From contig JBHGNT010000014.1 of NCBI GenBank assembly GCA_043228905.1, forward strand, positions 62,001 to 126,000: DNA of 64,000 bases, in the 5' to 3' direction. Position 1 is the first letter of the stretch. The number at the start of each line of letters is the position of its first letter. The notes under the pieces are model-generated. The model was not told the DNA's origin and ran no database searches. It saw only the letters and a program-made list of their open reading frames with translations. The DNA comes from Azolla caroliniana. Taxonomy: Eukaryota; Plantae; Polypodiophyta. A program made the translations under genes and the position numbers. Shown one piece after another: positions 9,731-54,432 of this stretch.

Positions 9731-12009
9731 GCTAAACCCTGTGCATTCGAGTCTCTCTCTGTGTTTTCGATTTACTGCTGCATTGATCCGTGTTTCCTCG
9801 GTTGTGGCCGAGAGGAGAAGGTTTGGAAAGCGTCATTTCCTCACATCTTGCACAAAAGCACGAAGTTGTGGCCACCAAAAGGAACGAGATACTAGCTCCA
9901 ATGTTTTTTGAATTCCAAAATGGCCAGCCATGTAGCCATCATGTCATTGCTCCAATACCCTAAGACGACCAGGTCCGTCTGTAACATATAAAAGCCCTTT
10001 GTAGGAGTAAGGTAGGAGCGTCATGACAATGCATCTGCCTTTCCTTGCAATACTTCTCGCTAATATGTAATCTTAAAATCAAACCGAGTAAGAAATTGTG
10101 CCCATCGAATTTGTCGTCTATTAAGCACTCGACCAGACTGGAAATACGTGAGGTTCTTATGATCATTATATACAATGATCTGATGAGGAGACCCTTCCAA
10201 AAAAATTCGCCATTGCTCAAAAGAATCAACAATAGCTAATAACTCTTTATCATGGATCTCATAATTAATCTCAGTTGCATTGAATTTACGTGAATGAAAA
10301 GCTATCAAATACAATTTCCCATCATGTCCTGATTGTGATAGAATACTTCCAAGTGCAAAATTTGATGCATCAGCTTCAATACCAAAAGGCTTACCAATAT
10401 CAACATGTGCTAGAATGGGTGTTGAGGTAAAGGCGAGCTTGAGTTCCATGAATGCCTTTTCTGCATCCTTTGTCCACACGAATGAATGATTTTTCTTTGT
10501 AAGTTGAATGAGGGGAAGAATGATCTTTGAGTAGTCCCTGATGAATTTACAATAAAAATTAGCAAAACCTAAAAAACATTGTACATCATGTATAGAGCTC
10601 AATGATTTCCAATCAAGGATTGTTTGGGCTTTAGCAGGATCCATAATAACACCATGTTCTAAAACTATGCAGCCTAGGAATTCCACTTGCTTGCAATCAA
10701 AATCACATTTTTCCATTTTCGCATACAAACCATATTCCCGTAATCTTTGTAGCACTTTCTTAACATGAATATCATGTTCCTCCTATGTTTTCGAATATAT
10801 CAAGATGTCATCGAGATAAATAATAACAAAGATATCCAAGAAATCTCGAAATATATCATTTGCCATATGTTGAAACACTGCAGGAGCATTGGTAAGGCCA
10901 AAAGGCATGATTGTATACTCAAAACGTCCATAGCGAGTACAGAAAGTTGTCTTCCAATCGTCCCCAGGCCGAGTTCGAACTAGATTGTATGCACCTCGTA
11001 AATCAATCTTCGTAAAAAACTTTGCTCCACTAAGCCGCTCTGAGAGACTTGATATCAAGGGTAAAGCATATCTATTACGAATTGTGACTTTGTTCAGGCC
11101 TCGATTGTCTACCACTAAACGAAGGGATCCCTATTTTTTCCTCACAAAGAAAATAGGGGCCCGAACTGGTGATCTCGAATGTCTGATGAAGCCTCATGAC
11201 AATATGATAGAATACCACCACCGCCCGGAGGCAAACACGGCCCGAAGGCGCCACATAATTGGCCCGAAAGCCTAGAACTGGTACTGGTAGTGAGTCCATA
11301 TTCGCTTGATGAATGTACATTTCCGTCAGCGGATTCGTTACCCATTCCATTAAATCCAGGTAGATTTATATTGTCTATCCATCTATTGGGATGGGTAGAC
11401 ACCAACAACTTCGGAGTCTAGCTAGCTCAACGATATGGGCAACCTCAAAACAAAAAAATACAATAAGTTTTTTTGCAGTAATGAATGTTAGAAAAATGCA
11501 ATTTTGTACCTACCCTCCTCAAATTAGTGTATTGGTTTATGCATATGATTCTAGAAGATGCACATCTAAGTAAGTAGGCACCATACCGATGAAATCAAAA
11601 GATATCTTCTCTATGTCAAAGGTTTTTCATATAGTTGCTCATTACACTCTTGATATTGGGTAGTATATCCATGCATTTGAAAATTTCAAAGGCTTTGCTA
11701 TGACTTCATAATTTGGTGAAGTTGGTTTCACCATCCTATGATTTCGTTATTCATTTATCTAAAACATGAATGTGGAAGTCAAACTATTTACTTTTTGTGT
11801 TAGTGACTCTTCTATTGTATGGTTGCTCATGATTCTACAACCAGATGTGACATGGTACTAACCATTCATGATTCTTTTTTTTGCATCATGTCCATTTGCT
11901 TAAAACAATCATGATTCATGCACATATCTACAAAATGCTAGAGGAGGAAAATTTTTCTTTTTGATGTTATGATCTATTACGGATAATCATCTTCAACCAG
12001 TTTATCAAA

Positions 12010-13100
12010 TGCCTTTGGATAGGAACTCAAGATAGCCTATTACACTATCTTAAAGGCTATGCACCTGGGCTACAACATCACATCAGGATAACTACATGCA
12101 TCTCCACCACTGGAGTGGATTTCTTAGATATCCGCCTTTTCAAAGGAGAAGATTTTCTTCGCACGAACAAGCTTTCTACTAGTTGTTATCAGAAGGAGCT
12201 CAACAGGTATCAATACCTTCCACACTCCTCCTGGCATCCTCAACATCAAAAGAAAGTGTTTATTATCGGTGAGCTGCGAAGATACGTCCTACGAGAAAGC
12301 ACCACAGAGGGCTATAAAAGAATAAGACGTCTATTATTCGAACAACTTCGCGCTAGAGGCTACCCCGATAAGTTCCTTAGATCATGTTTTAATCAGATCA
12401 CATACTCGATGAGGATATCACTGCTTCACGCACCCTCCAAGAGAAACACAATGGATAAGGGTAATCCTTTAGTTTTAAAACTGTATTTTTCTAAATACAC
12501 GAAAGCCTTAAAACTCGGTAAAACCCTTATTCGTACTATCCATGAGCTACTCAAAGATGATCCTGAGTTGTGCCATCTTCTGAAACCAATGATCTGCTGG
12601 AGAAACCCTAGGAACCTCCGTTCTTACCTAGTAAGGACAAGGTTTCCTCCAAGGGTTTAAAATACCCCGTGGATTTTCCATTTTTTAGATTTTCTCTAAA
12701 TTTTACCTTTATTGTAAAGGATACTTTAAGAGGCATCACATAAGACCCTCGAAAAGTATACCTTAAACAAGGTAAAATAACGCGTAGAAGTCTAAAAGTC
12801 ATGGAAGTCCAAGGGTTATAGCCAACAGTCAAAATTACCGTTGCCTTTTTTATTTCTCCCGCATTTTTTATTTTCTCCCGCCTATTTTCGAGACTAAAAT
12901 TTTCCCTCCACTCGCTCCTATAAAAAGGAGAGTGCGAGGGCTAATTTCTTGTATCCACAGTCTAGTGTTCCACTGAAGAGCTCACGATTAGCTGAGCAAA
13001 ACATGTATGGAGATACACTAATCCTTTGGTAATACAAGTTTTTTTTTAAATTTTATGTCTCGTTTCTTCTTAATATTGTAATTAAGTTTTATGTAATCTT
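12010..13100 (+). mobile_element. 5'-truncated Penelope-like element (PLE): RT C-terminus and thumb, 3' UTR, hammerhead-bearing pseudo-LTR
   Basis: Frame reads CLWIGT..L......IRIT...S...VDFLDI...YQKELNRYQYLPHSSWHP......GELRRY.....L.ARGYP....KPMICWRNPRNLRSYLVR, typical of PLE RT. Stop at 12660, TATA at 12919, hammerhead at 12963-13020. Confidence 0.85.
12963..13020 (+). ncRNA. Type I minimal hammerhead ribozyme (core GAAA changed to AAAA, probably inactive)
   Basis: Stem I TAGTGT-TCCA/TGGA-GAT-ACACTA, CTGAAGA 12973-12979, stem II GCTCA/TGAGC, AAAAC, palindromic stem III ACATGT, GTA cleavage triplet 13005-13007. Confidence 0.85.
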
Positions 13101-13399
13101 AATTAAGCCACACTATATCTCTCTCAATCCCTTTCTTCTCCGCTCCCGCATGCCTAATGGTGTCATCGACTTGTCTCTCATATCCTCTCACATAACAAGC
13201 TCTCAACACTCTACCTTACTTTTCGCACATCATTATGTTGCACACCATTCATTATGTTGTAAGCATGGGACTACATTCGGTAGCCATGCATTTTCCCATT
13301 TCTTATCCCTCTTTCATTGTATATGTTCGGGACTACATTTGGTAGCCGACATTATTTTGATTTTGTATCTCAAACCCTAAACTATATCACCAATCACAA

Positions 13400-13814
13400 T
13401 GCTTGTCACCCACATCCCTACATATGCACTCTCTCCTTGTTAGATTTTTCATATTTTTAACCCTACCCCTACCATTTCCCTACTTTCTTCTATTTTTAAC
13501 CCTACCCCTCCCCTACTTTCTCCTATTTTCGGCCCTACCCCTAATACTTTCTCCTAATCTCAGTCTTACCCCTTCCCCTACTTTTTCATATTTTTACTTA
13601 TACCTCTCTCCTACACTTTTATTAAAAACATAATCTTTAGATTATATTTACCCACTACCCCCGTCATCAATTTCCATATATTTTTCTTGGTTGCTCCATA
13701 TGTTTTTCTTTTCTCTCTCTCTCTCTCTCTCTCTTTCTTACTTTCATATCCTCTTTTGTCACTCTTCGTCTCTCTCTCTCTCTCTCTTCCTCTATATTTC
13801 TTACTTTTATATCC

Positions 13815-13853
<39 letters not shown>

Positions 13854-14596
13854 CTCTACCCCTCCCTTTACTTTTTATTACCACCCTACCCCTAACCTTA
13901 ACCCTCTCTAGCTCACACCAAGTGTATCAAACGGTTTGGGTGCGCTCAAATTGTTCTTGGTGAACTTTTCACTTCATCCCCACTTTGTCAATTTACCCCC
14001 TTACCCCTCCCTTACCTTCCAAAATTACCCTCCTACCCTTCCCCCTCAGTTTTTCAAATTTACCCCCTTTCCCTTCCCCCTTAGTTTTTCAAAATTACCT
14101 TTCTACCCCTCCTCCCACTTTTTCTTATTGCCACCCTACCCCTCCCCTAAACCCCCCCCTCATTTCTTAAAAACTAAACACCCTACCCCCACCCCGCCTC
14201 TCTCTAAATATTTTCCTCTCTTTTTTTCCTCTCTCACACTTAAGCTATCACTTCTCCCTCTCTTGGTTTTTCCTTTCCTATCTCAAAATCTTTTCCTATC
14301 CTATTTTATCCACCTTTCGATTTTTATTTTTCTACCCTCACCCATGTTTTACTTTTTCTTACCCTACCCCTCCCCATCCTCTTCCTAAATCTATAGCCTT
14401 CCCCCTTTTTCTTTTCCTCTTTCCCCACACTTGTCCCTCTCCCTTACCTCTCTCCTATTTCCTCTCTCTCTCTTACTTTGTTTAGTTTACACATGCATCT
14501 CTCTCCTCTCTCTACCCTCTTTCTCTCTCTTACTTTTTCTCTCGTTTTCCCACCCTTGATCCTCGTAGATCTACTCACTCCCCTTATGTCTACTCA

Positions 14597-14651
<55 letters not shown>

Positions 14652-14765
14652 CCTTTTTCCTTCCTTTCTCATCATCTCACATATTTTCCTTATTTCCCCC
14701 TCAATCTTAACTCCCCTTTGAATATTTCCCCTCATTTTACATTTCATATCCTAACTCTCTCTTTT
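13400..14765. repeat. Low-complexity pyrimidine-rich tract (CCCTACC-like motifs and (CT)n)
   Basis: G is nearly absent from the + strand; recurring CCCTACCC and TTACCCC motifs and several (CT)n runs. Confidence 0.85.
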
Positions 14766-14968
14766 CTCCTTATCTCTCGTTAACATTATAACCTCTTTTC
14801 CCTTGTACCAAAACCCCCCCTTGTCACATTAAAGCTCATAGTATCCTTTTCCTTCTTCTCCAAATCTTCCCCTTTTCAAATCATATCCATAAGCACACAC
14901 CCCCACTCCCTATTGTCATTTCTCTAAACCCTCTCCTAAAACTCCTTATATAAACCTATCCACCCCTA

Positions 14969-15027
14969 ATGGTCATTTTAGCACTGATGAGCACCGTGGT
15001 GGCCGAAACTAGTTTGCTCATGACCAT
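14969..15027 (+). ncRNA. Type I minimal hammerhead ribozyme (weakened stem II)
   Basis: Stem I ATGGTCAT-TTT-AGCA/TGCT-C-ATGACCAT, CTGATGA 14984-14990, GCACCGTGGTGGCC, GAAAC 15005-15009, palindrome ACTAGT, GTT site 15012-15014. Confidence 0.85.
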
Positions 15028-15085
15028 ATCCCCATGTAATTTCTTTTTCAATCTTAATGATAATTAGTAATAGCTTTGCTCTTAA

Positions 15086-15130
<45 letters not shown>

Positions 15131-15445
15131 ATGTTAGTAACATTTGTTTTAGTCCATTTAATTAATACTTAATGGCTAGCCCTCTCTCCCTTTCTCATTA
15201 TATTTAAGTTTTAATCCCTATAATAATTTAAGTTATCAAGGTTTAATCTCTCTCTCTCTCTCTCTCTCTCTTTTGCTCTTAATCACTCTCACTCTCTCTC
15301 TCTCTCTCTCTCTCTCTCAACATGTTAGTAACATTTGTTTTAGTCCATTTAATTAATACTTAATGGCTAGCCCTCTCTCCCTTTCTCATTATATTTAAGT
15401 TTTAATCCCTATAATAATTTAAGTTATCAAGGTTTAATCTCTCTC

Positions 15446-15494
<49 letters not shown>

Positions 15495-15576
15495 TTAATA
15501 CTTAATGGCTAGCCCTCTCTCCCTTTCTCATTATATTTAAGTTTTAATCCCTATAATAATTTAAGTTATCAAGGTT

Positions 15577-15623
<47 letters not shown>

Positions 15624-15820
15624 ATCTCTCGTTAACATTATAACCTCTTTTCCCTTGTACCAAAACCCCCCCTTGTCACATTAAAGCTCATAGTATCCTT
15701 TTCCTTCTTCTCCAAATCTTCCCCTTTTCAAATCATATCCATAAGCACACACCCCCACTCCCTATTGTCATTTCTCTAAACCCTCTCCTAAAACTCCTTA
15801 TATAAACCTATCCACCCCTA

Positions 15821-15879
15821 ATGGTCATTTTAGCACTGATGAGCCCCGTGGTGGGCGAAACTAGTTTGCTCATGACCAT
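15821..15879 (+). ncRNA. Type I minimal hammerhead ribozyme, intact core
   Basis: Same stem I as the 14969 copy, CTGATGA 15836-15842, perfect stem II GCCC/GGGC with a 6-nt loop, GAAAC 15857-15861, palindromic stem III ACTAGT, GTT site 15864-15866. Confidence 0.92.
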
Positions 15880-15943
15880 ATCCCCATGTAATTTCTTTTT
15901 CAATCTTAATGATAATTAGTAATAGCTTTGCTCTTAATCACTC

Positions 15944-15982
<39 letters not shown>

Positions 15983-16095
15983 ATGTTAGTAACATTTGTT
16001 TTAGTCCATTTAATTAATACTTAATGGCTAGCCCTCTCTCCCTTTCTCATTATATTTAAGTTTTAATCCCTATAATAATTTAAGTTATCAAGGTT

Positions 16096-16124
<29 letters not shown>

Positions 16125-16126
<2 letters not shown>

Positions 16127-17433
16127 CAAGCCGTGCACCGATGATACACCATTCGCACTCCTTGTCGACGATCGTATGATCAACAAAACCCTAAACCCTA
16201 AACCCTACCGCGTTCGTATAATAGTCCCTTGTCCTTAGTGCCGCTAACATAGCGGAGTATCCGGTGTGTGCACTAAACGTGATCTATGGTTGGCTTCTAC
16301 ATAAACTAACTTATCACACCGACCGGATAACTGATGTCGGGTTGGGTGACTGTTGAGTAGATTAGGCTTCCAACAAGCTGTCGGAATCATTTCTCATTGC
16401 AGGTCAATCTGAAGTTTGGATGTAGCTTCTTGCGGGGGGGTTGCTTGCTTCAGGTCGTAAAGCGACTTCTTGAGTCGGCACACTGTTGACTTGTTCATCT
16501 CCTACTGAAATTTGCGGGGTTGGATCATATAGACCTATTCTTCAAGGTCACCTTGAAGAAACACATTCTTCACATCCATCTGATGAAGATTTCACCCCCT
16601 TGCCACAACAACTACCAGCACCACACGAATCGTTGACTACCGGAACAAAGGTCTCGTCAAAATCGATTCTGTGTGTCTACGCATATCCTTTGGTCACTAA
16701 CCAGGCCTTATACCTTTGACCAAACTGTCGGAGTTGTACTTCACCTTATATACCCATTTGCAGCCGATCAGTTCACATTGTTGGGGAGGGTCAACTAGGT
16801 CCCATGTGTCGTTGGCATTGAGTGCCTGCATTTCTTCCTCCATAGTAGCAGGCCAATTTGTGTCTTTCGCTACTTCTTCGTAGCTCTCTAGCTCACACAC
16901 TTCCGCCACTTTTGTCATGTACACATAATGTTGCGCCATGTACTCTTTATACTCATGCCATTTTCAGGGTTCTTCTAGTGGGTAGATCGGCGAAGCTGTT
17001 GGTTCACCGATTTTTGGGCCTTCTTGGGCGACTCGAACTTCATTTCTCACAAGGCATTTTTTTGAACCGGGCCTTATACCTTTGACCAAACTGTCGGAGT
17101 TGTACTTCACCTTATATACCCATTTGCAGCCGATCAGTTCACATTGTTGGGGAGGGTCAACTAGGTCCCATGTGTCGTTGGCATTGAGTGCCTGCATTTC
17201 TTCCTCCATAGTAGCAGGCCAATTTGTGTCTTTCGCTACTTCTTCGTAGCTCTCTAGCTCACACACTTCCGCCACTTTTGTCATGTACACATAATGTTGC
17301 GCTATGTACTCTTTATACTCATGCCATTTTCAGGGTTCTTCTAGTGGGTAGATCGGCGAAGCTGTTGGTTCACCGATTTTTGGGCCTTCTTGGGCGACTC
17401 GAACTTCATTTCTCATAAGGCATTTTTTTGAAC
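16125..17433 (-). pseudogene. Copia RT relics including a 366-bp tandem duplication (16704-17433)
   Basis: 16210-16440 resembles copia-6 RT at about 59760-59950; the duplicated unit encodes [26 protein letters not shown]. Confidence 0.8.
16186..16206 (+). repeat. Interstitial plant telomeric repeat (AAACCCT)3
   Basis: Three perfect units, reverse complement of TTTAGGG. Confidence 0.85.
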
Positions 17434-28039: not shown

Positions 28040-31000
28040 ATGAAGATCCGTCCTGTGCCCTGCTTGCAAGACAATTACGCCTACCTGTATGTATTCTCTC
28101 TCTCTCTCTCTCTCTCCCTAGGTAGGTAGGGTTTTCTGGTTTCTGTTCCTTCCTTTTTTTTGTCATTCACGCATGCGCAGGAAAGAAGAGAATACAAATT
28201 CTATGACCTGAAGAAATGGTAGGTATTGTTTGTTTGGTTGGGCATAAGAACGCCTCTTTTTACATACATACATGCATATTGTTATTGTATGTAATATATG
28301 TATGTATAGCCTGGTGGATGATTCATCAAAGGATGCAGCAGTGGTGAAATGGTAGGTATTGTTTGTTTGTTTGGGCATAAGAACGCCTCTTTTACATACA
28401 TACATGCATATTGTTGTTGTATGTAATATATGTATGTATAGCCTGGTGGATGATTCATCAAAGGATGCAGCAGTGGTGAAATGGTAGGTATTGTTTGTTT
28501 GGTTGGGCATAAGAACGCCTCTTTTTACATACATACATACATGCATATTGTTGTTGTATGTATGCATGTAATGCATGTGATGTATGTATGTATGTATAGC
28601 CTGGTGGATGATTCATCAAAAGATGCAGCAGTGGTGAAATGGTAGGTATTGTTTGTGTGTTTGAGCATAAGAACGCCTCTTTTTACATACATACATGCAT
28701 ATTGTTGTTGTATGTATGCATGTAATATATGTAATGTATGTATGTATGTATGTATAGCCTAGTGGATGATTCATCAAAGGATGCAGCAGTGGTGGACCCT
28801 GTGGAACCTGAGCGCCTTCTCCAGGAGGCTCAAGCACACGGAGCATCTATCAAGTTTGTTCTCACCACGCATCGCCATTGGTACGCATCTCTATAAAGTT
28901 TGTTCTGGATGAATGAATTGACTGACTGAATGAATGCAAGAAGATATGAGATAGATAATGCCCAGATTTCTTTATTATCCCCCTCCAGGTTCCCATGGAA
29001 CCAAAATGAATCTTCATTTTCCACTGACAGAAAGAAAGATGCATATATTATGTATAGACTTGATCTATGGGACAAATCTGACATATCCACCACATTTGCA
29101 TTATCTCCTCTGGTCACAGAATATGCAGCTCAGGTGGATATTATGACCCTCTGAAACTAATAGGTAAGCCCAGCCCCCATGGCCCTTCCCATATTCTCTA
29201 ACGCTCCATGATATATGAAAGGGTAGGATCTCTCAACAATAGACCCTGGTATCTGCATCTACCAGCAAAATACTCCTTATCCGTCACCTCCAAGGTGCTT
29301 ATATGATAGATCCCCTCCACTCTTTTGATGCCTCTAACTCGACCCATCTCAATCTCTAGCTGTTGTAGTATACTCTTTGGTGACCTAGCTCTATTCGTGA
29401 GCTTTGGTGTATGTATATGTGTCCATGTATCAAAATCACTGAATGATAGATACCATTGTGCTAGGATTGCCATGAACTGGTTTTGAAACTACATCTTGAG
29501 AGGAAAGGGTTTTCTAATTGTGCTGCAGGTCTCTCTTATGTAAATCTGGCATATATAATATCTGAGCGCTGTATTTCTCCCCCTGCTTGAAATCAGTCTT
29601 CAGCTCGTGAATGGTGAGTGACATGCCTTACTCCTGCCTGACTCAGATCTGTTGGAATGCCTAATATATTGTACACACGAGTCTATCTGGTGTGGATATC
29701 CAAAGATTACAGCAAGGGCTGAAAAGAGCACAAATAAAGTCAAGAAAGAAGCAAAGTTTTGTTTTTGCTTATTGGCAAAAGGATGCAAGAGAAATAATTG
29801 CGCCAATATTAGACATGCCTAAATAAATACAAAAGGAAAGAAGCAAAAGGTGGTGTAGCAAACTCTGCTTTGATAATGCCTCACGGTGCCGATGCCTTTC
29901 TATGTATGAGGCCTGATATTCTACATATCTATGGTCTTTGTCTGTGTATTAGGTGTGAGATTCTAAATGTCTATGGTCTCAAGAGATGTACTTGAACCAA
30001 CTACATCATGTGATTCGTTTCACATCCAGTTTCATCCAGTTGGCACTTGTTTGTACCAACCCCATCAAGCACTGCTCTTGTACCAACTGCTGCATCTGGT
30101 TCATTTCAGGTTTTGGGTTTCATATTTTACATGGCATCATCCGTTGTTAAACTACTGCATCATCCGATTAGCCTTTTCTCCACTTGCCTGTATTCTCTTA
30201 CTTGAATGATCTGTAGTAACTTCTTAATCTGCTCAGATCCTAAGACCTTCATGAAGTGATCCACACAATTTGCCTCTGAAGGACATTACTCCACCCTCCT
30301 GTCAATTTCTTTACAAACATGTGATTTCAGTTGGTCAGTTATTTCTAGTTCATGGGTTAAATGGAATGATAATGCATAGGGGTGATGTTTATGACGAGAG
30401 AGAGCAAGAGAGAGCAAGAAGGAAAGAAAGTTGGGACATTTAACAGGGATCACGCAGGAGGGAATGAGAAGATAAAGAAGCTGATACCTGGCATAAAAGT
30501 CTATGGAAGCTTAGAAGACAATGTTGAAGGTCAGACAGATGTGTTAGGAGATGGAGATGAAGTATCTTTGGGAGACTCGATAACAATCAAGGCTATCCAC
30601 ACACCCTGGTTTGCCTACTTTACTGTTGCAGTCTCTTGAAATTCTATGTGATAATGTTTTTTGTTGTCAGTCTATGTGAACTTAATCCAAGGACTCATAT
30701 CAAGCAGACACTCATAGTTGGTCAACTGCATAAAGTTTCTCATATTCAAGACACATAACAGTAAGATGGCCTTTTTGCATTTGTGGAGTATAAGTCAATC
30801 TTCTTGGATATATGGCTCATGAAATTTGTCAATGGACATCATGGAGGATAATGAATCTAGAGTTTCATCAACAATATGTGGAAATATAATATCAATTTGT
30901 GTAAGCTTGTTGTCACTGGGAACACCAATTTGAGTATTGTCCAACGATAGAAACATGTGCAGAAGTCTCTTGTTGTAGCAATTAAAAATATTCCCAAAGA

Positions 31001-34000
31001 AGCTTTTTATCCCCTCCAAAGTCTTGGTGTATTATTCACTAATCCAAATACAAAGTCCTAAGGGATGTTCAGCCCTCCGTCTTCTGGTGTATTCCTCGTT
31101 GATCCCTAGCCGTGAATGGGGTCGTGTCCATCCCAAAGTTGCATTTCTATTTTTGGAATTGCCTTAATTCTTTGATGGCTTCCAATCACGCAAAGCTGCC
31201 ATCAAGACTGTTAGATATAATCAATGATCAGCCCCAAGTTGTAAATCTATCCCCATATGTGCTCTTAGAGTGCACATTTTGTGATAGCGCCCCAAATGAG
31301 GAGCGGCTAGTGTGCAACTCGACCATATGGGTCGATAAGGTGTTAATCTAGGAAACCGTAGATGCGTAGGACACAATATATTTAGGAAAGAGAGAAATAG
31401 ATAAAAGGATTGGCTAATCAAGTCAGCTAGAATATTTTGTGGGCAAGTTACGATGTACTTAGTCTTGAAGTATGCGTCATTGACTTCAAGATAAGTATTA
31501 TCTAGCACTAGCCTGTACCTAGGGAGTTGGGTCATATTAAATGACAAGTCAGTTGACAGAAAAGGAATATCTCCACTACTGTCAACTGACTTGCACATTT
31601 ATACTAAGACCAAACATAGATTATAAGTCACTTTTCTCACACAGTGGTCAGATTGATCATCAGTCCCCACTAATTTTGTAGTGAGCCGGTCCATATCCTA
31701 TCTAAGCTCTAAGGTGTGAGCGCATGGGAAAACTACCATTTTGAACTACTCTCATATGTAATAGAAATTCTGTTTTCATATATCCATCTCTGCAGTTGTA
31801 ACTCTATATACCTATCTACTCGATTCTCAATATTTCTAATTTGGTATCAGAGCGAAGAGGTTGATCTAGATTAGGTATATACGGGTAGTTGCTGTCTAGC
31901 AACAGAGAGAAATAGAGAGAGAGAGAGAGAGACAGAGTATCAATGGCCTTGTCCACGAATGTTGCAGCTGCTCCATTGCGCATTCGCCCACCTCCATTGT
32001 CTGATGGAAAGCTAGATGGAACCAACTACACTCTATGGAAGTTCAAAATGTCTGCCATTTTGGATTCCTACGAGTTGTTGGAAACAATCATGGGACCCAC
32101 AGGGGGAGACCCTGAGCCCATGGCAACCTTTGACCCTGCACACCCTACCACATCAATTCCTCCAAATGCTGATCTACTTCGAGCCTGGAAGAGAAGGAAT
32201 GCTGATGCGCTATGTACCATAGTCACTGGTGTATGTGACTCTGTACTAACACTAGTGCAACATACAACTAGGGCACATGAAGCTTGGAGCATATTGGCCA
32301 GCCAGTATGAGACCAGAAACTATACAAGGATACAAAACCTCGAAAATCAGCTTGCTGCAGAGAAGCTCGCTGATGGAGAGAAAGTAGAATCCTTTGTAAA
32401 AAGGATTAAGGATCTTCAAGATCAGCTGACGGCTGTTGGAGTAGTCGTCTCTCAAGAGGATATGGCTCGTCGGTGCATTCGAGTACTTCCTTTCAAGTAT
32501 GATGGCATTGTGACAGCATTGAACACTCAGGTTCGACCCACTCCTTTAAAATTTGATGAACTAAGTGCAATGCTGCTTGAAGAGGAGCTTCGGCTGAAGA
32601 CAAGAGAAGAAAGGGAAGATTCAGCATTTGTCTCTAGGACTAAGGGTGAAGGGGCATCCAATTCAAACAATGCGAATAGGATACCGAAGAAGAAGAAGTT
32701 CAATGGATTGTGTTTCTATTGTGACAAGAAGGGTCACACAATCAAGGATTGTCGAAAGAAGATGGCGGATGAGAAGAATGGTTCTAATAAGACTTCTTGG
32801 AGAGAGCCCGAGTCCGCTAACAATGTCGTAGATGAACTAGAGTTATGGGTCGCAACTGAAGAAGTGTGTTCTTCAGTTGACACTCAAGTTGTTGATGAGT
32901 CTTGGATTCTCGATAGTGGAGCATCCCGACATATGACCAGTAATCGTGACTGGTACAGTTCTTGGACACCTCTACAAGAGCCCATCAATGTTGTGGTCGG
33001 AAACAATGCTCGATGTCCGGCCAAAGGAACCGGAACCGTCTCCCTCAAAGCAACGACCGGTGGGACAAAGCATCTCTCTCAAGTGTTGTACGTGCCAGAT
33101 CTGAAGAAGAATCTACTGTCCATTTCTGCACTGACTGACAAGGGTCTTGATGTTCGATTCAAGAAGTCGGGTGCAGAAATAACAGATTCTGCTGGCAAGG
33201 TTGTAGGAATAGGGGTGAGGCGCAACAATCTCTATGAGCTGAGCGCGTTTACCATTTCTACTGACCACAGCACAAGTACCAACACAAAGCAATGGCATGA
33301 GAGATTTGGGCATCTCAACGTTGCTGTGTTGAAGGAGATGAAGAAGTCGAATATGGTAGTTGGGTTGCCAACCCTATCTGACTTAAGTCATGTTTGTGAT
33401 GCTTGTATGATGGGCAAGCATCAAAGATCAGCCATTCCAAAAGAGAGTCAAAATCGGGCAAAGACTCCTCTACAGCTAATACACATTGACCTCTCTGGAA
33501 AAATGGTGACTCCTGCAATGGGTGGATCTCTCTACTATATGCTAATAGTCGACGACTTCAGCAGAAAGATGTGGGTTTACTTCCTTCGGGAGAAGGCTGA
33601 AGCTTTTAAAATCTTCAAAAGATGGCATAAGTTTGTCGAGCGAGAGTCTGGAAAGTTAGTGAAGGAGCTACGCTCTGATCGAGGTGGAGAATTCTTATCA
33701 ATAGAATTCTGTGAGTATTGCAAAGAGCATGGAATTAAGCGCCAACTTACAACTGCCTACACCCCACAACAAAATGGCGTTGTCGAACGTCGAAATCGAA
33801 CAGTTGTCGAGATGGCTAGGTGTATGTTGAAGGCACAAGCGCTGCCCGACCCATTCTGGGCTGAAGCAGTGAACACAGCAGTTTACATCCTCAATCGGAG
33901 CTACACGAAGGCACTTCAAGGGAAAACACCCCAAGAAGCTTATTCAGGCAAGAAACCTTCAGTGCTGCACTTCAGAACCTTTGGGTGTATGTGCTACGCA

Positions 34001-37000
34001 CATATTCCAGATGTGAGCAGAAAGAAGTTGGATGCTAAAAGCAAAAAGTGTATCTTTCTCGGATATAGTGAAGAGTCAAAGGCCTATCGACTCTACGATC
34101 CAGAGGCAAGAAAGATATTGACAAGCCGCGATGTGGTGTTCGATGAGGAACAACCACAGCTAGCTGAGAACAACGATTCTCAAGTTATCTCATCAACTGA
34201 AGAAGTATTTTACCCAATCCCGACCCATTATCCAAAAAAGGAAGCTGAACCATCTGATGGTAATGGTTCACTAGTTCAGCCTATGCCAGTCCCACATGTA
34301 AAGAAAATACCTAAGTGGGCTCAGCAACTCTTCAATGATCATACTCCTAAAGTTGAGTTTCCTGAAACTTCAACTGATGGATTACGAAGATCAAGAAGAA
34401 TACAGGAGCAAGGAAGAACCTCTGACCACATTGTCAACATGGCTCTGATGGTGGACATCATAGGCTCAGTGAGTGAGCCGACCTCGGTGGAGGAAGCTAT
34501 GGCCGACCCGAAGTGGAAAGAGGCGATGATATCAGAATATGATAGCATCATGAAAAATGACACATGGGAGTTGGTAGAGAGGCCAACAAAGAAGAAGGTG
34601 ATAGGCACGAAGTGGGTATGGAAAGTAAAGTATAAAGCTGATGGCTCTTTGGAGAAATTCAAGGCCAGGCTAGTAGCGCAAGGATACTCCCAAATTGAAG
34701 GGTTCGATGTACAAGAAACATTTGCCCCGACAGCTTGCATGACAACAATTCGAATGGTCATAGCGTTGGCTGCTTCAAGAGGATGGCCGATTTATCAAAT
34801 GGATGTCAAATCAGCATTTCTGAATGGGCATCTCAAGGAGGAGGTATATGTGACACAACCACCGGGGTTTGAGATACCGAATTCAGAAAACAAAGTTTGC
34901 AAGCTGAAGAAGGCACTATATGGTCTAAAGCAAGCACCAAGAGCTTGGAACAAGAGGATAGACAGCTTCTTACGATCAATCGACTTTAAGCAATGTGCTT
35001 CGGATGCAAGTATGTATGTCAAAATGAAGGACGGGAAACAAGTCATCATTATCATTTACGTGGATGATCTAGTACTTATTGGTGACCATGAAGAGTGCAT
35101 TGGCCAAACACAAGAGTGTTTGAAAACTGAGTTTGAAATGACAGACTTGGGGATTCTACACTACTTCCTTGGAATTGAGGTTTGGCAAACCTCGGTCGGC
35201 ATCTTCATGTCACAAAGAAAGTATGCAACAGAGATCTTGAAGACCTTCGGGATGATGGACAGCAAGTCGAAGTCGACTCCAATGGAGTCAAACTGCAAGC
35301 TATCCCAAGAAGACTCATCACCAATGGTTGACATAAGGAAGTATAGACAACTAGTAGGAAGTCTAATTTTCCTATGCAACACTAGGCCGGATATTTGTTT
35401 TGCAGTCAATGTGGTGAGTCGATTCAGCAACAAGCCGAAGGAGACTCATTGGAAAGCTGCTCTACGTGTATTAAAGTACATTGTGGGTACTTTAAATTAT
35501 GGAATCTTCTACAAGCCAACAATTGACCAACTTAGTGGATATTGCGACTCCGATTGGGCTGGAGATAGTGATTCCAGAAAATCAGTTTCTGGATATTGTT
35601 TTTCAATAGGATCTGGAGCTGTTTCATGGAGTAGTAAAAAACAACCAACAGTGGCACTATCTTCAACGGAGGCAGAATACAAAGCAGCATGCATAGCGGC
35701 ATGCGAGGTAGTTTGGCTAAGAAGAATCCTTATGGATGTGGCAGTCCCAATAAGGACGGCAACGGTATTGAGGTGTGACAATCAGAGTTGCATGGCCATT
35801 GCCAAGAACCCCGTATTTCATGCACGTACTAAACACATAGAGATTCAGTATCACTATGTGCGGGAGCTAATAAATGATGAGATTGTGGAGCTTGAGTACT
35901 GTCCAACATCAGAAAATGCTGCAGATATCTTCACAAAGGCGCTTGGAGTAGAACAGTTGCAACAACACCTTCGACGACTAGGTGTTGGCCCAATTCCAAG
36001 TGAACTCAATGGGTTGATCATTGAGGGGGCGTGTTAGATATAATCAATGATCAGCCCCAAGTTGTAAATCTATCCCCATATGTGCTCTTAGAGTGCACAT
36101 TTTGTGATAGCGCCCCAAATGAGGAGCGGCTAGTGTGCAACTCGACCATATGGGTCGATAAGGTGTTAATCTAGGAAACCGTAGATGCGTAGGACACAAT
36201 ATATTTAGGAAAGAGAGAAATAGATAAAAGGATTGGCTAATCAAGTCAGCTAGAATATTTTGTGGGCAAGTTACGATGTACTTAGTCTTGAAGTATGCGT
36301 CATTGACTTCAAGATAAGTATTATCTAGCACTAGCCTGTACCTAGGGAGTTGGGTCATATTAAATGACAAGTCAGTTGACAGAAAAGGAATATCTCCACT
36401 ACTGTCAACTGACTTGCACATTTATACTAAGACCAAACATAGATTATAAGTCACTTTTCTCACACAGTGGTCAGATTGATCATCAGTCCCCACTAATTTT
36501 GTAGTGAGCCGGTCCATATCCTATCTAAGCTCTAAGGTGTGAGCGCATGGGAAAACTACCATTTTGAACTACTCTCATATGTAATAGAAATTCTGTTTTC
36601 ATATATCCATCTCTGCAGTTGTAACTCTATATACCTATCTACTCGATTCTCAATATTTCTAATTAGACTGCATCCTGACATTCTATGTCTTCATTTTGTA
36701 GTGAGCTGTCTGCAGCTATTCTCCCAATGTTTCGAATTCCCTGTTTGAATCCGTAAATTCTTCTTCCTGGTGTATTGTTTGGCGATCCATCAGGTCCTAA
36801 ATGAGGTTCGGCCATGGCTTCTTGATGTCTGCTGATCCCTAGCTTTGAATCGAGTCTTATCCATCCCAAAGTTCCATTGCTACTTTTGGAATTGCCTTAA
36901 TTGTTTGATTGCTTCTCATCATAGGGAGCTGCCTCCAATTCTGTATCGTGACTTGCAACATCTTCATTTTGTAGTGAGCTGTCTGCAGCTATCCGACAGA

Positions 37001-53375: not shown

Positions 53376-54432
53376 TAGTAGACATTGAGTTAAGTGCACA
53401 CTTTGACCGGAAGGGAAAGGTGCATACTTAACCGAGCTGTGCATTTAGGGCTTTTTTAGTAAAAAAAACCCAATTTTTTCTTTTATTTTCTAATTCTGAG
53501 AAAGGCCAACCCCAACAACCATCGTTGAGGCCCTCCTTGTTGTAATTGCTCCCACACTGCTACAATCCACGTCTCTCACCACGTTTCTTTTCTATGTCTA
53601 TTTTTTAGTCTCTATGGTATAAATGAATACAAGAGAAAGAAAAGACCGGGGGGGGGGGGGGGGGGTCTTGTGCATAATTTAGATGGCATGATTCTCTTCA
53701 TAGTTTAGATAGTAATTGTTTTGGAGATTGTGCGTGATGTTGTTAGTTTGATATATGACATGCGGTTTAGGAGAAATGATCCGCATACTTGGCTGAGATA
53801 GTGCAACAAAAATATCTAAAAGTAGGGATTTAAATCCAAATACTTGTGTTAATAGATCAATTGCTATTAATCAATTAATAGGTTTCCCTTCATGTGAGTC
53901 CACATAACGAGCTATTAATCGATTAATTGTTTTTCCTTTATGTGAGTTCACATAATGAGCTATCGGTTAATAACTTTCCCTTCATGTAAGTCCACATAAT
54001 AAGCTATTAATCGATTAATCTGTTAATAGTTTTTCCTTTATGTGAGTTTACATAATGAGCTATTAATCGATTAATAGCTTTCCTTTCATGTGAGTCCACA
54101 TAATGAGCTATTAATCGATTAATAGTTTTTCTTTATGTGAGTCCACATAATGCGTGATTATGTTATTAATCGATTATCCGATTAACCGATTAATCGCTTT
54201 CACTTCATAGACCCACACGCAACCTATGTAATCGTAGGAATGGAATATCTAAGTTTTATTGAATGTTGATCATATTTTTGTTGTTTTTTGAATGTCTGGA
54301 ACATAGTTTCAATTTGATTTTATGTAATTTCATCATAAGAAATTTTTATGATCTGGATTTCGACCTCTAGAAAAAGCACACTTAATATAGTAGTGCACTT
54401 AAGCGGACACACACTTAACCGAATGGTTACTG
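53376..54432. mobile_element. Non-autonomous Tc1/mariner (pogo-like) MITE
   Basis: Imperfect TIRs TAGTAGACATTGAGTTAAGTG / CACTTAACCGAATGGTTACTG (CAGTA-type end) flanked by TA on both sides; no ORF. Confidence 0.65.
53860..54200. repeat. Minisatellite of about 50-60 bp units with palindromic CTATTAATCGATTAATAG
   Basis: About six units of TGTGAGTCCACATAATGAGCTATTAATCGATTAATAGTTTTCCCTTYA. Confidence 0.9.

What the first reader, a model, noticed from the sequence alone, without database searches (positions are those of the whole stretch)
14769..16126. Tandem non-coding repeat with two minimal hammerhead ribozymes 852 nt apart (retrozyme or PLE pseudo-LTR-like array)
Seen: each repeat copy has a type I hammerhead with CTGATGA and GAAAC cores, an extended stem I (ATGGTCAT..AGCA / TGCT..ATGACCAT) and a palindromic stem III ACTAGT. 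The 15821 copy has a perfect GCCC/GGGC stem II, and there is no ORF between the two. Known: minimal type I hammerheads with palindromic stem III are typical of Penelope-like elements and non-LTR retrozymes and can cleave as dimers in tandem copies. The plant retrozymes I know of are LTR-type with type III hammerheads. Inference: read-through transcription would release an 852-nt RNA (15015-15866) that could circularise and be mobilised by a PLE RT. This would be a non-LTR retrozyme-like family in a land plant.
Basis: partly seen in the sequence, partly recalled or inferred. Interest (0 to 1): 0.88.

Follow-up and report, generated by a model that had tools for sequence, protein, structure and literature searches.

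The report
Twin ribozymes ending a Penelope retroelement
Two hammerhead ribozyme motifs, one of them damaged, sit in the locally duplicated end of a multi-copy plant repeat that carries the same end signals as telomerase-related, endonuclease-less Penelope retrotransposons, so they are likely the end repeats of such an element rather than an 852-base circular retrozyme.

Summary
The two type I hammerheads are real (cores 14984, 15836), but they are canonical rather than minimal, and copy 1 has two broken stem II pairs. The 852-nt interval is a patchwork of one end repeat plus extra pieces that each restart in a (CT)n tract, and it folds poorly as a circle. The repeat is the 3' end of a multi-copy, ORF-less, 5'-truncated element Y (13156-16206), which runs on past the finding to a conserved CGCACTCCT motif and three reverse-complement telomere repeats. 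Related plant elements with intact RTs carry the same TATA-hammerhead-tail module (25 of 33 loci), one as a (CT)n-joined tandem, and their stem III palindrome covaries as a dimer requires. Best reading: end repeats of a Coprina-type Penelope-like element, a kind known from Selaginella. Open: whether Y is non-autonomous. No cleavage or RNA data. The scan noted a comparable tail hairpin in a mushroom element before.

The parts
11540..12010 (.). Left flank, single-locus DNA, not part of the elements
   Evidence: One contig per run, depth 60.7/23.1/8.75 in X1/X4/X5; 238 of 239 letters shared with L036
12011..13158 (+). Element X: 5'-truncated 3' end of an endonuclease-less Penelope-like element, cut just before its telomere-repeat tail
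   Evidence: 88-90% DNA identity to L038, L042, L043, L048 over this span only; L042, L043, L048 continue into AAACCCT repeats
12013..12660 (+). C-terminal third of a PLE reverse transcriptase (palm end and thumb), ending in a stop with no GIY-YIG domain
   Evidence: 53-56% to 560-621 aa RTs, 42% to Selaginella XP_024523476; tree clade 98/99
12960..13024 (+).
   Evidence: L036 and L048 keep G there, L038 and L043 share the A
13156..16206 (+). Element Y: multi-copy, ORF-less here, 5'-truncated; joined to X through a 3-nt overlap (AAT)
   Evidence: Depth step and a shared loose end before 13156 in 4 of 4 runs; no protein match
14947..14953 (+). TATA-like box 37 nt before the hammerhead core (second copy at 15799-15805)
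   Evidence: TATA 30-60 nt upstream in 24 of 26 distinct pattern hits, mostly at 37-39
14969..15027 (+). Hammerhead copy 1; stem II broken at 14993 and 15003; predicted cut after 15014
   Evidence: over 95% of laid depth reads the pairing letters at both sites; L036 has them too
15127..15246 (+). Segment B, copy 1 (120 nt between two (CT)n tracts)
15272..15437 (+). Partial copy: last 15 nt of segment A, (CT)n, segment B; starts right after a (CT)n tract
15488..15579 (+). Partial copy: last 92 nt of segment B; starts right after a (CT)n tract
15621..16125 (+). Second end-repeat copy (segment A, (CT)n, segment B, (CT)n); starts right after a (CT)n tract
   Evidence: 99.4% to 14769-15271; 318 of 320 in A, B identical
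15821..15879 (+). Hammerhead copy 2, all stems intact; predicted cut after 15866
16154..16164 (+). Conserved tail motif CGCACTCCTTG, followed by a possible 4-bp hairpin
   Evidence: 1 match in the window, 0 in 100 shuffles; 28 hits in 50 loci; hairpin weak
16186..16206 (+). Three reverse-complement plant telomere repeats (AAACCCT)3, the likely 3' end of Y; the only such array in the window
   Evidence: copia-like DNA resumes at 16217

Best explanation
The two hammerhead motifs are likely the end repeats (pseudo-LTRs) of a multi-copy, endonuclease-less (Coprina-type) Penelope-like element, here a 5'-truncated, ORF-less copy whose end has been partly duplicated at (CT)n tracts. Inferred working: the TATA box starts transcription at the ribozyme; two hammerheads pair through the ACUAGU palindrome and cut, defining the RNA unit; an RT from a related ORF1+RT family binds near the CGCACTCCT tail; the (CCCUAAA)3 stretch anneals to a G-rich overhang at a telomere or a healed break and primes cDNA, which truncates and jumps, here onto the RNA of element X. 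The extra pieces arose by serial restarts in (CT)n, either as RT jumps or later at the DNA level. The 852-nt stretch is a by-product and, with copy 1 broken, probably is not released. Shown: anatomy, boundaries, multi-copy state, covariation, shared module with RT-bearing relatives. Inferred: promoter use, cleavage, dimer, priming, RT source.
For: Same module after intact endonuclease-less RTs: hammerhead within 1 kb on the same strand in 25 of 33 loci with at least 500 nt of 3' flank, 38 plus-strand against 0 minus-strand hits in 248,576 bases (many loci are near-copies of a few families). Covariation in 22 chosen rows: 95% of cells paired, 33 double changes, 0 of 500 shuffles as high; the loop III dinucleotide is self-complementary in 22 of 22 (TA 13, AT 6, CG 3). 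L011 has two hammerheads 257 nt apart, joined in a (CT)n tract, after an intact RT. The tail motif marks 3' ends: 5 of 28 motif hits leave the family 29-45 nt later into unrelated DNA, 3 of 28 go into telomere repeats; Y does the latter. Y continues upstream of the duplicated piece and of 13156 in other copies. 63-86 contigs per DNA run lie on 431 nt of Y against one per run on the flank. No GIY-YIG in 50 loci or in 9 ORFs scanned. Canonical type I hammerheads in Selaginella EN-less PLE repeats: PMC4209133.
Against: No RT was found attached to Y: 0 matches from 114 locus ORFs or 163 proteins, and Y's upstream motif is in none of 74 loci; its 1.83 kb before the hammerhead exceeds the 188-823 nt seen in relatives. 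Y's assignment rests on shared end signals and about 70% identity over 160-186 nt that include (CT)n. The site is interstitial, whereas Coprina elements are described at telomeres. Both window copies share 3 substitutions and 1 indel absent from allele L036 yet differ by only 2, and 14805G is in none of three DNA runs, which argues that the tandem is younger than the insertion, against RT jumps at insertion. No cleavage or expression data.
Confidence: 0.8

Rival explanations
1. A true non-LTR retrozyme: read-through transcription releases the 852-nt RNA between the two hammerheads, which circularises and is copied by a PLE RT into new tandem arrays.
For: Type I hammerheads in tandem, 36% GC, no ORF; multi-copy family; vertebrate retrozyme units reach 972 bp and derive from PLE end repeats (10.64898/2026.07.22.740005).
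Against: Only one intact ribozyme; the interval holds three copies of segment B with junctions in (CT)n; depth shows no step at 14769 in X1 or X4 (a 3-fold rise in X5) and contigs span it; circle 31% paired, -66.7 kcal/mol, z -1.9 on 25 shuffles, against the highly self-paired circles described in PMC7229834.
Confidence: 0.06
2. The family and its hammerhead are real, but the tandem in this window is an assembly error around the (CT)n tracts.
For: Four B copies are letter-identical and the A copies 318 of 320; a 366-nt 99% tandem lies 500 nt away; no laid contig is listed across a tandem junction (one search covered 14655-15085 only).
Against: Junctions start at three different points and two carry extra T letters; (CT)n lengths differ between copies; L011 shows the same kind of tandem; copy 1 has two private changes.
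Confidence: 0.09
3. X and Y are one element: the hammerheads end a 3.5-kb 3' UTR of the RT fragment at 12013-12660.
For: Same strand; L036 is colinear from 11762 to 15052.
Against: L036 shares the unique flank, so it is the same locus, not a second insertion; X has its own hammerhead and its relatives end at 13158 in telomere repeats; summed depth is 1-5 times the flank on X but up to about 100-190 times on Y, and Y copies have other DNA before 13156 in 4 of 4 runs.
Confidence: 0.05

Closest known systems
Coprina-type endonuclease-deficient PLEs of Selaginella moellendorffii (Sm1/Sm2), with canonical type I hammerheads in their pLTRs (PMC4209133, results read)
   Same: RT clade shared with a Selaginella protein, no GIY-YIG, canonical type I hammerhead near the 3' end, reverse-complement telomere repeats, partial tandems
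   Different: Interstitial site among LTR-element debris; Y has no ORF over 3 kb; relatives have a separate ORF1; many relatives lack telomere repeats. I did not compare with the Sm1/Sm2 DNA itself.
Athena/Terminon 3' module: hammerhead plus reverse-complement telomere repeats (PMC6431247 passages; PMC8557442 introduction)
   Same: Hammerhead and short telomere stretch at the 3' end, head-to-tail chains of 5'-truncated copies
   Different: Telomere repeats lie about 320 nt downstream of the ribozyme here, not immediately adjacent, with (CT)n and a CGCACTCCT motif between
Metazoan non-LTR retrozymes (PMC7229834 passages; 10.64898/2026.07.22.740005 first part and passages)
   Same: Canonical type I hammerheads in a tandem, low GC, no ORF, kinship to PLE end repeats
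   Different: No regular monomer, one of two ribozymes broken, poorly structured interval, embedded in a longer element
Plant LTR retrozymes (PMC4918200 passages)
   Same: Two hammerheads 600-1000 nt apart in a plant, promoter-like signal in the repeat
   Different: Type I not type III, 36% GC not over 55%, no target-site duplication found

Membership tests
Type I hammerhead ribozyme | Conserved core CUGANGA/GAAA, NUH triplet, three helices | tested here: met
   Copy 2 meets all; copy 1 lacks 2 of 4 stem II pairs
Type I hammerhead ribozyme | Self-cleavage | not testable with these tools
   Needs in vitro transcription
Minimal hammerhead (min-HHR, PMC4209133) | No helix III or loop 3, long helix II | tested here: not met
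   4-bp helix II, 2-bp helix III with 2-nt palindromic loop
Endonuclease-deficient PLE (Coprina type): element X | PLE-clade RT | tested here: met
   Clade 98/99 with Selaginella, Cryptomeria and Ginkgo proteins, apart from four GIY-YIG-bearing RTs; no reference Coprina sequence was in the tree
Endonuclease-deficient PLE (Coprina type): element X and relatives | No GIY-YIG endonuclease at either end | tested here: met
   Stop at 12660; 0 motif hits in 50 loci; none in 9 ORF1/RT proteins or 10 homologues
Endonuclease-deficient PLE (Coprina type): element Y | Own RT ORF | tested here: inconclusive
   None in the 3 kb present; the copy is 5'-truncated and the missing part could not be read
Endonuclease-deficient PLE (Coprina type): element Y | 3' hammerhead-bearing repeat plus reverse-complement telomere repeats | tested here: met
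Endonuclease-deficient PLE (Coprina type) | Location at or near chromosome ends | tested here: not met
   Mid-window, with 12 kb and 48 kb of other DNA on the sides and no other telomere array in 64 kb; distance to a chromosome end beyond the window unknown, no genome held
Non-LTR retrozyme | Regular tandem monomers, each with a complete hammerhead | tested here: not met
   Patchwork interval, copy 1 broken
Non-LTR retrozyme | Low GC, no ORF | tested here: met
   308 of 852 G+C
Non-LTR retrozyme | Highly self-paired circular RNA | tested here: not met
   31% paired, z -1.9; prediction only
Non-LTR retrozyme | Abundant linear and circular RNA in tissue | not testable with these tools
   Only contigs were served; they cannot show RNA ends
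Plant LTR retrozyme | Type III hammerhead, 4-bp target-site duplication, high GC | tested here: not met
   Type I topology; best flank match 5 nt, not at the junctions; 36% GC

The most novel reading that the evidence does not exclude
Y is a non-autonomous, multi-kilobase RNA parasite of endonuclease-less Penelope elements in a land plant: it keeps only a promoter-ribozyme-tail module (TATA at -37, dimer-dependent hammerhead, CGCACTCCT signal, telomere stretch), outnumbers its RT donors, and, like a radiation of relatives that insert with no telomere repeats at all, has left the telomere niche by priming at internal breaks.
Probability: 0.3. Interest if true: 0.65.

Novelty: new member of a known kind. 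Interest (0 to 1): 0.38.

Why it matters
Hammerheads in plant PLE end repeats are known, so the finding as written is mostly explained. What it adds is a set of natural variants that makes two open questions testable: whether PLE hammerheads act as dimers (the 6-nt palindrome swaps among ACUAGU, ACAUGU and ACCGGU but stays self-complementary), and how elements without an endonuclease insert inside chromosomes (a conserved motif marks the 3' end with or without telomere repeats). If Y proves RT-less at full length it would be a plant counterpart of PLE-derived non-autonomous elements, so far characterised mainly in animals.

Tried and rejected
No genome is held for the window and none behind L036, so copies could not be counted or Y extended upstream. 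Rfam at gathering score: nothing. Pfam does not recognise the RT fragment. Sequencing runs: no RNA holder listed; run X15, a guessed RNA run, gave 4 diverged contigs over the hammerhead, which cannot show ends or level. My first reading, that the hammerheads end element X, was dropped. The idea that (CT)n is the element's 3' end was dropped when the tail motif and telomere repeats were found beyond it; one relative (L016) does end in (CT)n. RNAalifold predicts no consensus structure for the tail; a 4-bp hairpin chosen by eye is 71% paired with 4 double changes in 12 rows, too weak to claim. tblastx hits of Y to loci were low-complexity only. The bacterial promoter scan is irrelevant and found nothing. 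Two window copia ORFs were not in the protein collection, so the host is known only as a plant with TTTAGGG-type repeats. PMC1890498 is not held. Literature searches with no hit: Penelope + fern genome + microsatellite + retrotransposon; Penelope + Ceratopteris + transposable elements; other searches listed no paper on this family, judged from listings only. I did not search for the tail motif in print, and supplements (for example the element sequences of PMC8557442 and PMC4209133) were not read and may hold it. The sequence look-up of earlier findings gave one unrelated hit and the genome look-up none.

Full report
Observation. With the palindromic stem III included the pattern has 3 matches in the window and none in 100 shuffles: the two reported and a third at 12973. 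Copy 2 folds with all stems; copy 1 has two of four stem II pairs broken, and these two letters are the only differences in 320 nt between the copies. Rfam gives only a sub-threshold HH9 match. By the definitions in PMC4209133 (first two of four parts read) the motifs are canonical type I, the kind that paper reports in Selaginella PLE repeats.

The 852-nt interval is not a monomer. The duplicated piece is about 503 nt (14769-15271 against 15621-16123, 99.4%). Between the copies lie two more partial copies of the 120-nt segment B. Every extra piece starts directly after a (CT)n tract, at a different point, with little overlap and one or two extra T in two junctions. As a circle the interval is 31% paired, z -1.9 on 25 shuffles.

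Boundaries. Contigs of three DNA runs were laid on 14655-15085 and 11150-13460. The tool warns that summed depth is no copy number, so I use it only as a contrast. The flank 11540-12007 is covered by one contig per run (depth 60.7, 23.1, 8.75). 12011-13155 has 1-5 times that. From 13156 depth jumps, and on 14655-15085 it is 5 to about 190 times the flank, from 63-86 contigs per run with many variants. All 4 runs show other DNA before 13156. Depth does not step at 14769 in X1 or X4. So the hammerheads belong to a multi-copy element Y that is 5'-truncated at 13156. Among the 40 variant rows shown (16 not shown), none falls in the core or stem III, and over 95% of depth has the pairing letters at 14993 and 15003. 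No ORF or protein match lies in Y.

Element X. The ORF at 11965-12660 holds the C-terminal third of a PLE RT: 53-56% to full-length RTs of 560-621 aa, 42% to Selaginella XP_024523476. In a tree of 40 rows (28 of 74 loci offered, 6 dropped for lack of an intact C-terminus) it lies in a 98/99 clade with Selaginella, Cryptomeria and Ginkgo proteins, apart from GIY-YIG-bearing RTs. Its relatives L042, L043 and L048 match 12011-13158 at most and then run into telomere repeats. X is joined to Y through a 3-nt overlap. L036 is colinear over 11762-15052 but shares the unique flank (238 of 239), so it is an allele of this locus, broken at 15052 by other DNA.

Relatives. A scan with the RT alignment gave 74 loci (best 80 of 101 confirmed stretches kept). 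Of 49 plant-clade loci, 33 have at least 500 nt after the RT; 25 of these 33 carry a same-strand hammerhead 188-823 nt downstream, and two of the eight misses (L038, L043) have a mutated one. The loci are not independent: they are near-copies of roughly ten families. Complete units read hammerhead, tail motif, ORF1, RT, hammerhead, with a period of 4.4-4.7 kb and no GIY-YIG. A TATA-like box lies 30-60 nt before the core in 24 of 26 distinct hits, one of the two misses being a chance hit at window 63194. In 22 hand-picked rows stems I and II covary and loop III is always self-complementary; the shuffle control ignores kinship. L011 has two hammerheads 257 nt apart joined in (CT)n. Of 28 tail-motif hits, 5 leave the family 29-45 nt later into unrelated DNA without telomere repeats and 3 carry telomere repeats; these are short-read contigs and some joins may be chimeric.

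Mechanism. Shown: anatomy, boundaries, covariation, shared module. Inferred: transcription from the TATA box, dimer cleavage (6-bp palindrome duplex -4.8 kcal/mol), RT supplied by an ORF1+RT family, priming through the telomere stretch as described for Athena and Coprina (PMC8557442 introduction and passages; PMC6431247 passages; PMC13159263 passages), truncation and a jump onto X RNA. Since copies end beyond the ribozyme, the template must be uncut at its 3' ribozyme or circular, as PMC4209133 proposes. How the tandem formed is open. RT jumps fit the junctions and L011. But both copies share 3 substitutions and an indel that L036 lacks, and 14805G is in none of the three DNA runs, which favours a later DNA-level event; contigs drop rare variants and L036 may be mosaic in Y (4.9% mismatch mid-element against about 1% elsewhere). 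I put it at about 50% DNA-level, 40% RT jumps, 10% assembly error. Whether full-length Y has an RT is about even.

Comparison and verdict. X is filed as an endonuclease-deficient PLE; Y works like the 3' end of one, with membership unproven for lack of an RT; neither is telomeric within this window. It fails the retrozyme tests that could be run. Tandem hammerheads in Selaginella are already mentioned (PMC5680766 passages), and PLE origin of animal retrozymes is argued in 10.64898/2026.07.22.740005. The names Sm1/Sm2 come; reading GUU as a usable cleavage triplet is recalled knowledge. An earlier scan note on a mushroom element describes a hairpin beside the priming tail; my test of such a hairpin here was weak. 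New member of a known kind, interest 0.38.

Noticed in passing
window 12960-13024: Third hammerhead, of element X, with G12 changed to A; two relatives (L038, L043) share the change.
   Followed up: yes
L008:5003, L017:4662, L018:4827, L023:3815, L029:2353: Endonuclease-less PLE copies that end 29-45 nt after the CGCACTCCT motif in unrelated DNA with no telomere repeats, suggesting insertion away from telomeres.
   Followed up: partly
P0166, P0178, P0129: The same RT clade is present, unannotated, in Cryptomeria japonica (cluster of 9) and Ginkgo biloba, so endonuclease-less PLEs reach gymnosperms.
   Followed up: partly
window 14993 and 15003: The only two differences between the copies in 320 nt both break stem II of copy 1; unexplained (chance, selection against an internal cut, or consensus error).
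   Followed up: partly
window 11285-11488: A 200-nt piece with very high laid depth in all four runs, part of a 4-kb contig in X15; possibly organellar DNA or another repeat.
   Followed up: no
window 16699-17433: Near-perfect 366-nt tandem duplication inside a copia-like fragment; further tandems at 28213-28794 and 53863-54152.
   Followed up: no
window 31209-36664: Copia-like element with a 1373-aa open frame and two identical 633-nt LTRs, so very recent.
   Followed up: no
L036:3450 onward: The allele of this locus is interrupted 25 nt after the hammerhead by LTR-like DNA starting with TG.
   Followed up: no
run X15, loose end before 15004: A diverged subfamily hammerhead with CCGATGA in place of CTGATGA.
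   Followed up: no
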